Source: Candidatus Saccharimonadota bacterium (lineage in GTDB: Bacteria > Patescibacteriota > Saccharimonadia > Saccharimonadales > Saccharimonadaceae). Taken from it: 64,000 bases of DNA. The stretch is taken from NCBI GenBank assembly GCA_016290315.1, contig JAEETK010000001.1, forward strand, positions 83,157 to 147,156, in the 5' to 3' direction. The position numbers were made by a program, and so were the translations under genes. Under the pieces are notes generated by a model. It was not told where the DNA came from and searched no databases. It saw only the letters and a list, made by a program, of their open reading frames with translations. This document shows, piece by piece, positions 62,124-63,647 of this stretch; within the stretch, counting starts at the first letter, position 1, and the number at the start of each line of letters is the position of its first letter.

Positions 62124-63647
62124 CTAATGGAGTATTTGAGGACGATACTGGATAGCTTCCGAAATGTGTTCAGTGGTAATTTTAGGGGAGAGCTCTAGGT
62201 CGGCAATGGTCTGAGCAACTTTAATGATTTTAAAATAAGAACGAGCGGATAGACAATAATGGTTTGAAGCTTGATTGAGTAGGTCTTTAGCTGTTTTCGT
62301 AAGGTGGCAGTATCTAGTAATTTCAAGCGAAGAAAGGCGAGAATTGAATCTCGTAAGATCGTGATAGCGTAGGTGTTGTTGCTGAACGGCATCGTGAATC
62401 TGTTTTTGAGCGAGAGTATGCTGCTTAATGCTGATTGTGCGGCTGTGATGGAGGATGCTGTCGGGCTCTTGCAAGACAGGAGTTGTGATATCGATACGGT
62501 CCAAAAGCGGTCCAGATAGTTTTTGACGATATCTCTGAATGGCGCTAGGAGAGCAGGTGCATTCTTTGATATTTGATTGAAAGTAGCCACAGGGGCATGG
62601 GTTCATGGTGGCAATTAGCATAAAGTCGGCAGGATATTGGGTATGTCCATTGATTCGATCGAGTTTAACGAAATGATTCTCGAGCGGTTGCCGAAGTGCC
62701 TCGAGACAATCTCGACGAAATTCTGGCAGCTCGTCGAGATGAAGGACGCCGAGATGAGCGAGGGATATTTCGCCTGGTATGAGATTTGGGCCGCCACCTA
62801 ATAGAGCAGTTAGATTGATACTATGGTGTGGGGCGCGGTATGGGCGTTCCGAGATGATATTTGTACATAGAGAGTGAAGGGAATGGACCTTTGTGATAGC
62901 GATTTGTTCAGTGAGACTTGGTGGCGGCATAAGGCTGGCACTGACTTTGGCAAGCATAGTTTTGCCAGTACCGGGCGGGCCGGTCAAGAGGATATTGTGT
63001 CGCCCTGCGACGGCGATGGTCAGGGCGCGTTTAGCGTGTTCCTGACCGATAACCTCGTCTAAATAAAAATGGTTGTGGTTATCTGTTTGTGTATTTTTAA
63101 CAAAAACAGTGGTGCTCTTGATAGTGGCTTTACCTTTTAGAAATAGTCATAATTCGCGTAGATTATGTGCAGGGATTATGTCGAGATTGTTGTCGGCTAG
63201 AAGGGTGGCTTGAGGCATGTTGCCAGCAGGAATGATGAGCTGCTTAAACCGATATTTTTTGGCGGTTTCGACGATATTTAAAATGCCCTTGATGGGCTTT
63301 AAATTGCCGTCTAAGGACAATTCGCCCACAAACATACGATTCTGTAGGTCTTTTGCCAATAGTTGCTGAGAAAGGCTGAGAATCGCTAGGGTGATAGGCA
63401 GGTCAAGATGAGTGCTATCTTTACGGAGTTCGGCTGGTGCGAGATTAATAATAATTTTGTGCCGAGGAAAGTCGAATAAAGAGTTGCGAAGAGCGGAGCG
63501 GATGCGGTCGCGACTTTCGGTAATCATTTTACCTGGCATACCGACAATATTGAAGGCGGGAAGACCGCGAGTCGCGTCGCCTTCGACCGTAACCAGATGA
63601 CCCGTATAGCCATAGGGGATGGCTGAATAAACTTTTGAGATTTTCAT
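62124..63647 (-). pseudogene. comM: Mg-chelatase-like AAA+ protein ComM/YifB, interrupted by one in-frame TGA
   Basis: The N-terminal Lon-like domain (MKISKVYSAIPYGYTGHLVTVEGD..) runs to TGA at 63149-63147. The same frame continues ..[38 protein letters not shown].. to TAG at 62124. Confidence 0.75.

What the first reader, a model, noticed from the sequence alone, without database searches (positions are those of the whole stretch)
63147..63149. comM/yifB split by a single in-frame TGA: third case, all TGA
On the minus strand, the Lon-like N-terminal domain ORF ends ..[10 protein letters not shown]. The same frame continues [67 protein letters not shown].. into the AAA+ module, which the track shows as a separate ORF with a spurious TTG start. 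The offset between the stop codon start at 63149 and 62987 is 162 nt, exactly 54 codons.

This makes three conserved genes in 64 kb that are each broken once, each time by TGA, with conserved sequence resuming immediately in frame. TGA is otherwise a rare terminator here: about 8 of roughly 75 genes use it, mostly as ATGA overlaps or closely followed by in-frame TAA/TAG.

Possible explanations are recent TGG/CGA-to-TGA nonsense mutations in dispensable genes, low-level programmed readthrough, or a partial suppressor-tRNA system.
Basis: partly seen in the sequence, partly recalled or inferred. Interest (0 to 1): 0.68.

Follow-up and report, generated by a model that had tools for sequence, protein, structure and literature searches.

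The report
Read-through UGA codons in competence genes
The stop codon inside comM is not a dead-gene mutation: a clade of about 50 gut and rumen Saccharibacteria species keeps in-frame UGA codons (never UAA or UAG) in its DNA-uptake genes, so these genes are very probably made by reading through UGA in cells that still use UGA as a normal stop.

Summary
comM (minus strand, 63647..62124) is one frame broken only by TGA at 63149..63147.

It is not a recent nonsense mutation.
- The same TGA sits at the same aligned column in 11 of 18 aligned species (49-99% identity). Five others have TGG (Trp) there and two have Phe.
- Across the genus, in-frame stops occur in comM (about 20 species), dprA (26), comEC (19) and comFC (46 of 47 derived-clade species). 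They occupy at least 31 different alignment columns.
- Every interior stop is TGA. Invariant Trp columns switch repeatedly between TGG and TGA.
- Sequence downstream of the stops is under purifying selection (dN/dS 0.06-0.4).
- A genome-wide census in two species found no other interrupted conserved gene, except one helicase IV-like gene in the second species.

The genetic code is not reassigned. RF2 is intact, no tRNA has a UCA anticodon, and 15% of genes end in TGA, as in an outgroup.

One lead on mechanism: RF2, but not RF1, of the TGA-bearing clade carries substitutions at E. coli positions 245 (Arg to His) and 258 (Asp to Asn) beside the GGQ motif. Five genus members with ancestral RF2 have no TGAs.

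Best reading: UGA is read through, probably as Trp, which throttles or gates these genes.

The parts
62124..63647 (-). comM (YifB-family Mg-chelatase-like AAA+ ATPase of natural transformation), 507 codons including one in-frame TGA
   Evidence: TIGR00368 517.9 bits, above the cut-off, over residues 6-502
63147..63149 (-). In-frame TGA (codon 167) in the linker between the Lon-like/ChlI N-domain and the AAA+ module; context tta-TGA-cta
   Evidence: same column is TGA in 11 of 18 aligned species, TGG in 5 and TTT/TTC in 2; always followed by a CTN Leu codon; about 20 genus species have exactly one TGA in comM and none has TAA or TAG
63150..63647 (-). comM N-terminal part (ChlI / Lon_C-like domain), upstream of the TGA
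   Evidence: PF13541 21-143; dN/dS 0-0.02 against close relatives
62124..63146 (-). comM AAA+ module and C-terminal domain, downstream of the TGA; reachable only by reading through
   Evidence: PF01078 196-392, PF13335 414-502; dN/dS 0.06-0.10 downstream of the stop. The only in-frame start (TTG 62987) cuts the Walker A motif
34391..35467 (+). Sortase-dependent pilin paralogue (DUF7601) with one in-frame TGA after the signal peptide
34505..34507 (+). In-frame TGA of the pilin paralogue
   Evidence: TGA at the same site in G017, G067, G004 and G006 (95-98% identity) and in G001, G009 and G061 (48-52% identity). Ser in G007
35741..36451 (+). Sortase paralogue with one in-frame TGA upstream of the catalytic Cys
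   Evidence: (PF04203 69-220 spans the stop)
36260..36262 (+). In-frame TGA of the sortase paralogue; a Trp position
   Evidence: TGG (Trp) in G009 and TGA in G061 at this column. G009 and G061 each carry a further TGA elsewhere, one of them replacing a Trp (EYTIAW -> EYTIA*)

Best explanation
The TGA in comM is a conserved, selected in-frame UGA that the ribosome reads through, so full-length ComM is made. It belongs to a clade-wide pattern. In the derived part of this Nanosyncoccaceae genus, the transformation genes comM, dprA, comEC and comFC, plus a pilin/sortase cassette, typically carry one or a few in-frame UGA codons. The rest of the genome does not, and UGA remains an ordinary terminator.

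Shown:
- The UGAs are conserved or recurrent across species.
- They are exclusively UGA.
- They often replace invariant Trp codons.
- Coding sequence under purifying selection follows them.
- They are confined to this gene set in two genome-wide censuses.

Inferred:
- The inserted residue is Trp, delivered by the single near-cognate tRNA-Trp(CCA).
- Readthrough is made possible by a clade-specific RF2 variant with His for Arg at E. coli position 245 and Asn for Asp/Glu at 258. Both positions flank the GGQ loop and contact 23S rRNA in E. coli RF2. RF1 keeps the ancestral residues, so only UGA termination would be weakened.
- The consequence is that full-length protein from these genes is throttled. 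This is either an adaptive gate (a UGA-defined regulon that responds to RF2 activity) or a set of nearly neutral hypomorphs tolerated because these genes are not needed for growth.
For: - **Conservation.** The comM TGA is at one column in 11 species of 49-99% identity, with TGG in others. About 20 genus species have one TGA in comM.
- **dprA.** 26 of 50 derived-clade species have 1-2 TGA. The main column is Trp in 16 and TGA in 13 of 30 aligned sequences.
- **comEC.** 19 species have 1-4 TGA in 13 columns. Trp columns 258 and 290 switched TGG to TGA in at least 2 and 3 separate lineages.
- **comFC.** 46 of 47 derived-clade species have at least one TGA (36 have exactly one), in 12 columns.
- **No interior TAA or TAG.** The nine TAA/TAG flags in comEC are true terminators 2-10 codons before the usual end. 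Only 24% of one-step nonsense paths in these genes give TGA, so P < 1e-18 for 30 or more sites.
- **Purifying selection downstream of the stop.** dN/dS is 0.06-0.10 for comM, 0.11-0.19 for comFC and 0.25-0.42 for comEC.
- **Census.** In G000 the only interrupted conserved genes are comM, dprA, comEC and comFC, plus the pilin and sortase paralogues. In G007 they are comM, dprA, comEC, comFC (partly at other positions) and one helicase IV-like gene. None carries TAA or TAG. By contrast, 541 conserved G000 genes hold 1,246 conserved TGG codons.
- **Restricted to the genus.** comFC has no stop in 162 genomes of more than 120 other genera.
- **RF2.** The derived clade reads DVY-H-SGGHGGQSVNTT-N. 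All 15 outgroups and G002, G016, G058, G048 and G073 keep R..D, and these five are the genus members with zero TGA in all four genes. G045 (H..D) has TGAs. The mapping to E. coli R245 and E258 comes. Arg245 and Glu258 contact 23S rRNA (PMC11890864). Neighbouring residue 246 controls RF2 activity in K-12 (PMC5373646). RF1 of G000 and G048 keeps R..D.
- **Dispensability.** com genes are not needed for growth but are needed for transformation in a cultured Saccharibacterium (PMC10633639).
Against: - No protein, ribosome-profiling or RNA data exist.
- Some species carry 3-4 TGAs in comEC (G008, G020, G012, G065). With inefficient readthrough this would give almost no product, so either readthrough is efficient or those copies are decaying.
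- If RF2 were generally weak, one would expect fewer TGA terminators or more back-up stops than in the outgroup. Neither is seen.
- The RF2 association probably rests on a single evolutionary branch. G057 has the derived RF2 but no TGA.
- No stimulatory RNA structure or common sequence context was found.
- Many TGA columns are variable positions with no Trp in any relative, so Trp insertion is shown only indirectly.
Confidence: 0.68

Rival explanations
1. Ordinary pseudogenisation. The lineage is losing natural competence, and comM, like the pilin and sortase paralogues, is a young dead gene hit by a TGG-to-TGA or similar mutation.
For: RF2 is intact and there is no UCA tRNA. com genes are dispensable for growth in a cultured relative. 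A few species have 3-4 TGAs in comEC. An unrelated CPR genome has a comM amber stop that an earlier agent judged a young pseudogene (e1-1314923).
Against: The same TGA is shared at about 50% protein identity. dN/dS downstream is 0.06-0.4. No frameshifts and no interior TAA or TAG occur in more than 200 gene copies, while 76% of nonsense paths would give TAA or TAG. Trp columns toggle between TGG and TGA but never to TAG. comFC keeps at least one TGA in 46 of 47 derived-clade species.
Confidence: 0.05
2. Genome-wide codon reassignment. The genus uses UGA as a sense codon (Trp, as in table 4), and comM is simply read by that code.
For: TGA replaces invariant Trp codons. A UGA-to-Trp reassignment has recently been reported in another Patescibacteriota family (PMC13092985).
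Against: RF2 is intact and conserved in every genus genome that is at least 78% complete. The only tRNA-Trp is CCA, with a normal 5-bp anticodon stem. TGA ends 14-15% of genes, the same as in the outgroup. None of 1,246 conserved Trp codons in 541 other conserved genes is TGA.
Confidence: 0.03
3. A dedicated decoding agent that these tools cannot see. Possibilities are a suppressor tRNA on an unbinned plasmid or phage, a tRNA of unusual structure, conditional modification of C34 of tRNA-Trp, or A-to-I editing of UGA to UGI (read as UGG) in these mRNAs.
For: Multiple TGAs per gene in some species call for efficient decoding. The strict restriction to a small gene set suggests specificity. MAGs are incomplete.
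Against: No UCA or other stop anticodon turned up even at relaxed aragorn settings. TGA positions differ between species, which argues against a local cis signal. No Rfam hit and no significant fold occur next to the stops. The sites lack the UACG context of the known TadA editing motif (established knowledge; sequences).
Confidence: 0.14
4. Split genes. Translation ends at the UGA, and the two halves act as separate polypeptides or the downstream part is made by reinitiation. For ComM this would mean a Lon-like N-domain plus a separate AAA+ module.
For: In comM the TGA lies in an inter-domain linker. Many TGAs in dprA, comFC and the pilin are near the N-terminus, where reinitiation is conceivable. 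Two-gene ComEC layouts exist in other CPR groups (e1-830188).
Against: The only in-frame start after the comM TGA is a TTG inside the Walker A motif. Other TGAs lie inside the Competence domain of comEC, at the invariant Trp of the comFC phosphoribosyltransferase motif, inside the sortase domain, and between a signal peptide and its cargo. The site is a Trp codon in relatives that make a single chain.
Confidence: 0.08
5. Sequencing, assembly or binning artefact.
For: The bin has 8.4% estimated contamination and a second, uninterrupted comM on contig C67.
Against: The identical TGA-bearing 26-mer occurs in eight loci, including four MAG records from different studies. The pattern recurs in about 50 species assembled independently.
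Confidence: 0.01

Closest known systems
Leaky-UGA programmed readthrough decoded by tRNA-Trp (phage Q-beta A1 protein; low-level UGA-as-Trp reading in E. coli and Bacillus subtilis)
   Same: An in-frame UGA, no dedicated suppressor tRNA, near-cognate tRNA-Trp(CCA) as the likely decoder, RF2 as the competitor, and a full-length product made at a fraction of initiation events.
   Different: Here the UGA is internal to ordinary cellular genes and replaces sense (often Trp) codons; it does not extend a protein past its natural end. It marks a whole functional pathway in about 50 species, and its positions turn over between species. No readthrough has been measured.
bldA / TTA-codon regulon of Streptomyces (a rare codon confined to developmental and antibiotic genes)
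   Same: One codon is absent from housekeeping genes and confined to a small set of non-essential, specialised genes. Translation of that set therefore depends on the capacity to decode that codon.
   Different: bldA works through a dedicated, developmentally regulated tRNA-Leu(UAA) and a sense codon. Here the codon is a stop, no dedicated tRNA was found, and any regulation is hypothetical.
prfB autoregulation (in-frame UGA in the RF2 gene senses RF2 activity)
   Same: An internal UGA makes the yield of full-length protein inversely dependent on RF2 activity.
   Different: prfB uses +1 frameshifting at a specific slippery/SD site. Here the frame is unchanged. prfB of this genome has no frameshift site: it is an open 361-codon frame.
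E. coli K-12 RF2 Thr246 hypomorph
   Same: A substitution next to the GGQ loop of RF2 (position 246 there; 245 and 258 here) that would lower release activity and raise UGA readthrough while RF1 is unaffected.
   Different: The K-12 variant is a laboratory-lineage peculiarity with measured effects. The R245H and D258N changes here are fixed in a natural clade and untested.
UGA-to-Trp (table 4) and UGA-to-Gly (table 25) reassignments in Mycoplasmatales, insect endosymbionts, Absconditabacteria/Gracilibacteria and the Patescibacteriota family JAKLIH01
   Same: UGA stands at conserved Trp positions, and the lineage belongs to the Patescibacteria.
   Different: Those lineages lost RF2, have a cognate tRNA(UCA) or a 4-bp-stem tRNA-Trp, and do not end genes in UGA. 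None of this holds here.
Bacterial selenoprotein recoding
   Same: Gene-specific reading of an in-frame UGA in a genome that otherwise terminates at UGA.
   Different: There is no tRNA-Sec and no SECIS-like hairpin. Homologues have Trp, not Cys, at the site. Positions vary between species.

Membership tests
ComM / YifB family (TIGR00368) | Full-length match to the family model above the curated cut-off | tested here: met
   517.9 bits against a cut-off of 362.4, residues 6-502 of 507, spanning the TGA position
ComM / YifB family (TIGR00368) | Three-domain layout: ChlI/Lon-like N-domain, Mg_chelatase AAA+ module, C-terminal domain | tested here: met
   PF13541 21-143, PF01078 196-392, PF13335 414-502
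ComM / YifB family (TIGR00368) | Uninterrupted reading frame under the organism's code | tested here: not met
   one TGA at codon 167; the frame is otherwise intact
Programmed stop-codon readthrough | The stop codon is conserved or recurrent across species, with an open frame beyond it | tested here: met
Programmed stop-codon readthrough | Purifying selection on the sequence downstream of the stop | tested here: met
   dN/dS 0.06-0.10 (comM), 0.11-0.19 (comFC), 0.25-0.42 (comEC)
Programmed stop-codon readthrough | Leaky stop identity and context | tested here: inconclusive
   All sites are UGA, the leakiest stop. The +4 base is C or A at 75% of 88 unique sites against 47% at TGA terminators, but it is similar to the base after TGG codons in the same genes, and the sites are not independent
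Programmed stop-codon readthrough | Stimulatory downstream RNA structure | tested here: not met
   z-scores -0.97, 0.16 and -1.31; no Rfam match
Programmed stop-codon readthrough | Full-length protein detected | not testable with these tools
Reassigned genetic code, UGA = Trp (table 4) | Loss of RF2 | tested here: not met
   RF2 is intact with SPF and GGQ motifs in G000 and in all sufficiently complete genus genomes
Reassigned genetic code, UGA = Trp (table 4) | tRNA-Trp with a UCA anticodon, or a CCA tRNA with a 4-bp anticodon stem | tested here: not met
   a single tRNA-Trp(CCA) with a 5-bp anticodon stem
Reassigned genetic code, UGA = Trp (table 4) | UGA not used as a terminator; in-frame UGA spread over many genes | tested here: not met
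   15.3% TGA terminators against 14.5% in the outgroup; in-frame TGA in only 6 genes of G000 and 5 of G007
Pseudogene (decaying gene) | A mixture of disabling lesions (all three stops, frameshifts) and relaxed selection | tested here: not met
   TGA only, single continuous alignments across the stops, dN/dS well below 1
Selenoprotein gene | tRNA-Sec, a SECIS hairpin just downstream, Cys in homologues | tested here: not met
   no tRNA-Sec; no element; Trp or Phe in homologues
Rare-codon regulon (bldA-like) | The codon is confined to a small set of specialised, non-essential genes | tested here: met
   Dispensability of com genes for growth in a cultured relative comes from PMC10633639
Rare-codon regulon (bldA-like) | A dedicated, regulated decoding factor | tested here: inconclusive
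   No dedicated tRNA was found. A clade-specific RF2 variant correlates with the trait, but its activity and regulation are unknown

The most novel reading that the evidence does not exclude
A clade of gut and rumen Saccharibacteria has evolved a stop-codon-defined translational regulon. After RF2 acquired R245H (then D258N) beside its GGQ loop, in-frame UGA became a usable, selectable gate. It is now maintained, with positional turnover, in the natural-transformation genes (comEC, comFC, dprA, comM) and an accessory pilus cassette. Competence is therefore switched on, or made heterogeneous between cells, by whatever lowers RF2 activity or raises tRNA-Trp competition. This would be a bacterial analogue of bldA control that uses a stop codon and a release factor in place of a rare sense codon and a tRNA. 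It would also be a living example of the 'ambiguous intermediate' stage of stop-codon reassignment.
Probability: 0.3. Interest if true: 0.92.

Novelty: new variant of a known kind. Interest (0 to 1): 0.82.

Why it matters
Annotation pipelines will call these genes pseudogenes or split ORFs. They would then conclude that about 50 species of gut and rumen Saccharibacteria have lost natural competence, when the comparative evidence says the genes are maintained.

Biologically, this would be the first case known to me of a whole functional pathway marked by in-frame UGA in a bacterium that keeps RF2 and uses UGA as a stop. It links gene-specific recoding to a natural RF2 variant.

It gives a concrete, testable entry point to two open questions. 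One is how stop codons pass through an ambiguous stage on the way to reassignment, which has happened repeatedly in Patescibacteria. The other is how competence is regulated in CPR bacteria, which lack the known competence regulators.

It also bears on the genetic tractability of these organisms, because natural transformation is currently the only genetic tool for Saccharibacteria.

Tried and rejected
- **Suppressor tRNA.** aragorn on the whole bin found 47 tRNAs, and 62 candidates at relaxed settings. aragorn was also run on G007 and G027. There is no UCA or other stop anticodon and no tRNA-Sec.
- **Hirsh-type or 4-bp-stem tRNA-Trp.** The D-stem pair is C11-G24 and the anticodon stem has 5 bp. 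The only clade difference is that pair 28-42 changes from C-G to U-A, and this also occurs in TGA-free G048.
- **RF2 loss or prfB frameshift.** Absent: the frame is open over 361 codons and carries the SPF and GGQ motifs.
- **Genome-wide ambiguity of UGA.** TGA terminator share and the distance to the next in-frame stop do not differ from the outgroup.
- **First ORF-pair census without homology.** It was uninformative: 356 same-frame ORF pairs, mostly adjacent genes. It was replaced by a homology-spanning census against two fetched relatives. Antisense and rRNA shadow frames had to be filtered out.
- **The nine TAA/TAG flags in comEC.** These are natural terminators 2-10 codons before the usual end, not interior stops.
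- **Cis elements.** No Rfam family lies within 2 kb around comM and there is no significant fold downstream of the three window TGAs. No uniform codon context was found.
- **Literature.** No paper links Saccharibacteria with readthrough or in-frame UGA in com genes.
- A shared UTR motif among the UGA-bearing genes, and a species tree to count independent gains formally.
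Full report
**1. What is at the site**

On the minus strand the frame reads ..[22 protein letters not shown].. with the TGA at 63149..63147. The frame is otherwise open from ATG 63647 to TAG 62124, which is 507 codons.

The ORF list shows two pieces: 201 aa ending at the TGA, and 287 aa starting at TTG 62987. 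That TTG lies inside the Walker A motif ([11 protein letters not shown]), so it is not a credible start.

With the TGA read as a residue:
- The protein matches the YifB/ComM model TIGR00368 over residues 6-502 at 517.9 bits, against a cut-off of 362.4.
- It has the ChlI, Mg_chelatase and Mg_chelatase_C domains.
- The TGA falls in the linker after the N-terminal domain.

**2. The organism and its decoding apparatus**

The window is contig C11 of a 1.198-Mb, 74-contig bin that is 98% complete with 8.4% contamination. Near-identical public records are titled Candidatus Saccharibacteria or Nanosyncoccaceae MAGs.

- The bin has 47 tRNAs, a single tRNA-Trp(CCA), and no UCA anticodon or tRNA-Sec.
- RF2 is intact: 442 bits against a cut-off of 370, an open 361-codon frame, with SPF and GGQ motifs. 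RF1 is intact as well.
- TGA terminates 164 of 1072 predicted genes (15.3%). The figure is 14.1% in a congener (G007) and 14.5% in a genome of another family (G027). Back-up stops after TGA are not enriched relative to that outgroup.

The genome therefore uses the standard code, and UGA is a working stop.

**3. The comM TGA is old and sits at a Trp position**

A search of 40 relatives found comM with exactly one TGA in many congeners and none in 16 other families.

Eighteen orthologues were aligned:
- TGA is at the same column in 11 species whose ComM is 49-99% identical to this one.
- Five species have TGG (Trp) at that column and two have TTT/TTC (Phe).
- One further species has a TGA at a different column.
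- Flanking codons vary synonymously (tta/ctc/ctt before, cta/ctg/ctt after).

Across all 59 species representatives of the genus, about 20 have one TGA in comM and none has an interior TAA or TAG. Among close relatives that all carry the TGA, dN/dS is 0-0.02 upstream and 0.06-0.10 downstream of it. The AAA+ module is therefore still under strong protein-level selection. The TGA-bearing 26-mer occurs in eight loci, including four MAG records from different studies.

**4. Genome-wide census**

I fetched two relatives: a congener, G007 (861 kb), and a complete genome of another family, G027 (669 kb).

Method:
- Every stop codon in G000 with at least 25 open codons on both sides was joined across the stop.
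- The joined sequence was searched by tblastn against the two relatives.
- A hit counted only if a single alignment spanned the stop.
- Antisense and rRNA shadow frames were removed, as were ordinary gene ends followed by a same-frame neighbour.

Result for G000. The only genuine interruptions are TGA:

| Gene | Position | Residue in G007 | Residue in G027 |
|---|---|---|---|
| comM | C11:146305 | TGA, same site | Tyr |
| dprA | C62:4400 | TGA, same site | Phe |
| comEC | C22:29913 | Trp | Trp |
| comFC | C10:56427 | Leu | Glu |

The two window cases, the pilin and sortase paralogues, are the other two. No conserved gene is interrupted by TAA or TAG.

Result for the reverse census on G007: again only TGA, in comM, dprA, comEC and one helicase IV-like gene. 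The G007 comFC TGA came from a direct alignment, not from this filtered census. The comEC and comFC TGAs lie at positions different from those in G000, where G000 has Gly.

For scale, 541 G000 genes are conserved in G007 over at least 60% of their length. They contain 1,246 Trp positions kept as TGG.

**5. The pattern across the genus**

| Gene | Species with in-frame TGA | Distinct TGA columns |
|---|---|---|
| dprA | 26 of 50 derived-clade species, 1-2 TGA | 4 |
| comEC | 19 species, 1-4 TGA | 13 |
| comFC | 46 of 47 derived-clade species (36 with exactly one, 9 with two, 1 with three) | 12 |

- In dprA the main column is Trp in 16 and TGA in 13 of 30 aligned sequences.
- In comEC, nine hits flagged with one TAA or TAG are natural terminators 2-10 codons before the usual end.
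- Invariant Trp columns have switched TGG to TGA in several separate lineages: comEC columns 290 and 258, and comFC column 193. Within the closest relatives of G000, one species (G004) has TGG where the others have TGA in comEC, and it has an extra TGC-to-TGA change in comFC.
- Thirteen of the 31 TGA columns contain Trp in some homologue, and in six Trp is the majority residue. The remaining columns are variable positions.
- By codon content, only 24% of single-base nonsense changes in these four genes would create TGA. Seeing TGA alone at 30 or more independent sites has P < 1e-18. At Trp codons, TGG-to-TAG is as easy as TGG-to-TGA but never occurs.
- The pilin TGA is conserved at the same site in species only 48-52% identical. 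The sortase TGA is TGG in one species and TGA in another, with further TGAs elsewhere, one of them at a Trp position.
- Outside the genus, comFC has no stop in any of 162 genomes from more than 120 genera, including six genomes of other genera of the same family.

**6. What this excludes**

- **Simple decay** is excluded by the TGA-only spectrum, the conservation and the dN/dS values.
- **A reassigned code** is excluded by RF2, the tRNA set, normal TGA terminator use, and the absence of TGA from other genes.
- **A selenocysteine-type mechanism** is excluded because there is no tRNA-Sec, no Rfam hit, no significant fold downstream (z -0.97, 0.16, -1.31) and varying positions.
- **Split-gene or reinitiation models** fail for TGAs inside the Competence domain, at the invariant Trp of the ComFC phosphoribosyltransferase motif, inside the sortase domain, and between a signal peptide and its cargo. 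In comM no usable restart codon exists.
- **What remains** is translation through UGA. Trp is the most likely inserted residue, because TGA alternates with TGG at conserved Trp columns and tRNA-Trp(CCA) is the classical near-cognate reader of UGA (established knowledge).

**7. A mechanistic lead: RF2**

I aligned RF2 from 36 genus members and 15 outgroups, then added 20 more genus members.

- Two substitutions flank the GGQ loop and track the trait. The derived clade reads DVY-H-SGGHGGQSVNTT-N-SAVR. All 15 outgroups read ..R..D.., as do G002, G016, G058, G048 and G073.
- Those five are exactly the genus members with no TGA in any of the four genes.
- G045 has H..D and carries TGAs. Only G057 has H..N with no TGA in any of the four genes. 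G013 also shows none, but its comM and comFC were not found in the assembly.
- Species with at least one TGA: 50 of 52 with derived RF2 against 0 of 5 with ancestral RF2. The Fisher test gives P = 5e-6, but this is probably one evolutionary event, so the P value overstates the independence.
- By alignment to E. coli RF2, the positions are Arg245 and Glu258.
- A 2025 structural study lists Arg245 (to G2508) and Glu258 (with Gln280, to U2492) among domain-III residues that hydrogen-bond 23S rRNA (PMC11890864).
- The adjacent residue 246 is the site of the well-known low-activity K-12 variant (PMC5373646).
- RF1 of G000 and of G048 keeps R..D. Only the UGA-specific factor changed, which fits the UGA-only tolerance.
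- tRNA-Trp differs only in pair 28-42: U-A in the derived clade and in TGA-free G048, C-G in the other three ancestral-RF2 species recovered (G002, G016, G073; none was found for G058), in another genus of the family and in E. coli. That change arose earlier than the RF2 change.

That the RF2 variant is weaker is an inference. Nothing here measures it.

**8. What it does**

Two sub-models fit, and I cannot separate them.

(a) **Adaptive gate.** The in-frame UGA makes full-length protein depend on RF2 activity or tRNA-Trp competition. This would give low, conditional or cell-to-cell variable competence.
- In favour: near-universal retention of at least one TGA in comFC despite positional turnover, with few zero and many single-TGA states.
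- In favour: clustering of TGAs near the 5' end of dprA, comFC and the pilin, where abortive products are cheap.
- In favour: the restriction to one pathway plus a pilus cassette.

(b) **Nearly neutral hypomorphs.** Once RF2 became leakier, TGA alleles became tolerable only in genes whose dosage hardly matters.
- com genes are dispensable for growth but needed for transformation in cultured Southlakia (PMC10633639).
- Null TAA and TAG alleles would still be purged.
- Species with 3-4 TGAs in comEC fit this model, or incipient decay, better than a gate.

**9. Relation to earlier notes of this scan**

The 'decaying cassette' reading (e1-4092909) is not supported for the two TGAs.

Three follow-up reports on other genomes describe conserved in-frame UGA in comEC and comF of gut and rumen Saccharibacteria and reach the same readthrough reading (e1-4088492, e1-4021175, e1-3952506). 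These are unchecked AI notes on what is probably the same genus. They agree with my analysis but are not independent proof.

New here:
- the extension to comM, dprA and the pilus cassette;
- the two whole-genome censuses;
- the genus boundary;
- the RF2 and RF1 comparison.

**10. Limits**

- The species table was compiled by hand from the search outputs.
- Independence of TGA gains was judged from alignment columns and obvious clades, not from a formal tree.
- The census can only see genes conserved in the two fetched relatives.

Noticed in passing
G000 contig C67:5517-7025 (outside the window): A second, uninterrupted comM copy, 57% identical to the window's, with TGG at the critical column. 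C67 also carries an rRNA operon. With 8.4% estimated contamination, this contig probably comes from a second species of the same genus in the bin and is not a paralogue.
   Followed up: partly
Loci L250-L258 (comEC 3' ends of G054, G062, G049, G059, G056, G064, G050): In these species comEC ends at TAA or TAG 2-10 codons earlier than in G000, yet the following codons still read ..YGKIY.C as in the longer proteins. In G000 this tail overlaps the start and ribosome-binding region of the downstream tsaE-like gene (C22:29021-29425), which may explain the conservation.
   Followed up: partly
G007:C3:643742 (locus data): A 720-codon helicase IV-like (UvrD/Rep superfamily) gene of the congener G007 has one in-frame TGA where G000 has Trp. 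The UGA-bearing set is therefore not strictly limited to com and pilus genes, though it remains within DNA processing.
   Followed up: partly
tRNA-Trp, G000 C39:9563-9638 and loci L301-L318: Anticodon-stem pair 28-42 is U-A in the TGA-bearing clade and in G048, but C-G in G002, G016, G073, another genus of the family and E. coli. The change predates the RF2 substitutions and its effect on UGA reading is unknown.
   Followed up: partly
L290 (G073 prfB) and L312 (G008 tRNA-Trp): Runs of N lie exactly at sensitive places: 12 N just before ..RSGGHGGQ.. in the RF2 gene of G073, and 14 N inserted between the D-arm and anticodon stem of tRNA-Trp in G008, the species with four TGAs in comEC. They may be scaffold gaps or masked stretches, and they hide sequence that bears on the mechanism.
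   Followed up: no
dprA alignment columns 31-37, comFC columns 40-52, window 34505-34507: In-frame TGAs cluster near the 5' ends of dprA and comFC and directly after the pilin signal peptide. There a failed readthrough wastes only a short peptide.
   Followed up: no
whole window (composition): Very strong and uniform GC skew (+0.07 to +0.33 in every 4-kb bin), with most long genes on one strand. This strand asymmetry is unusually strong.
   Followed up: no
whole genome tRNA set: G000 and G007 have tRNA-Arg(GCG) but no tRNA-Arg(ACG), whereas the outgroup G027 has both. CGN decoding in this genus may therefore not depend on inosine.
   Followed up: no
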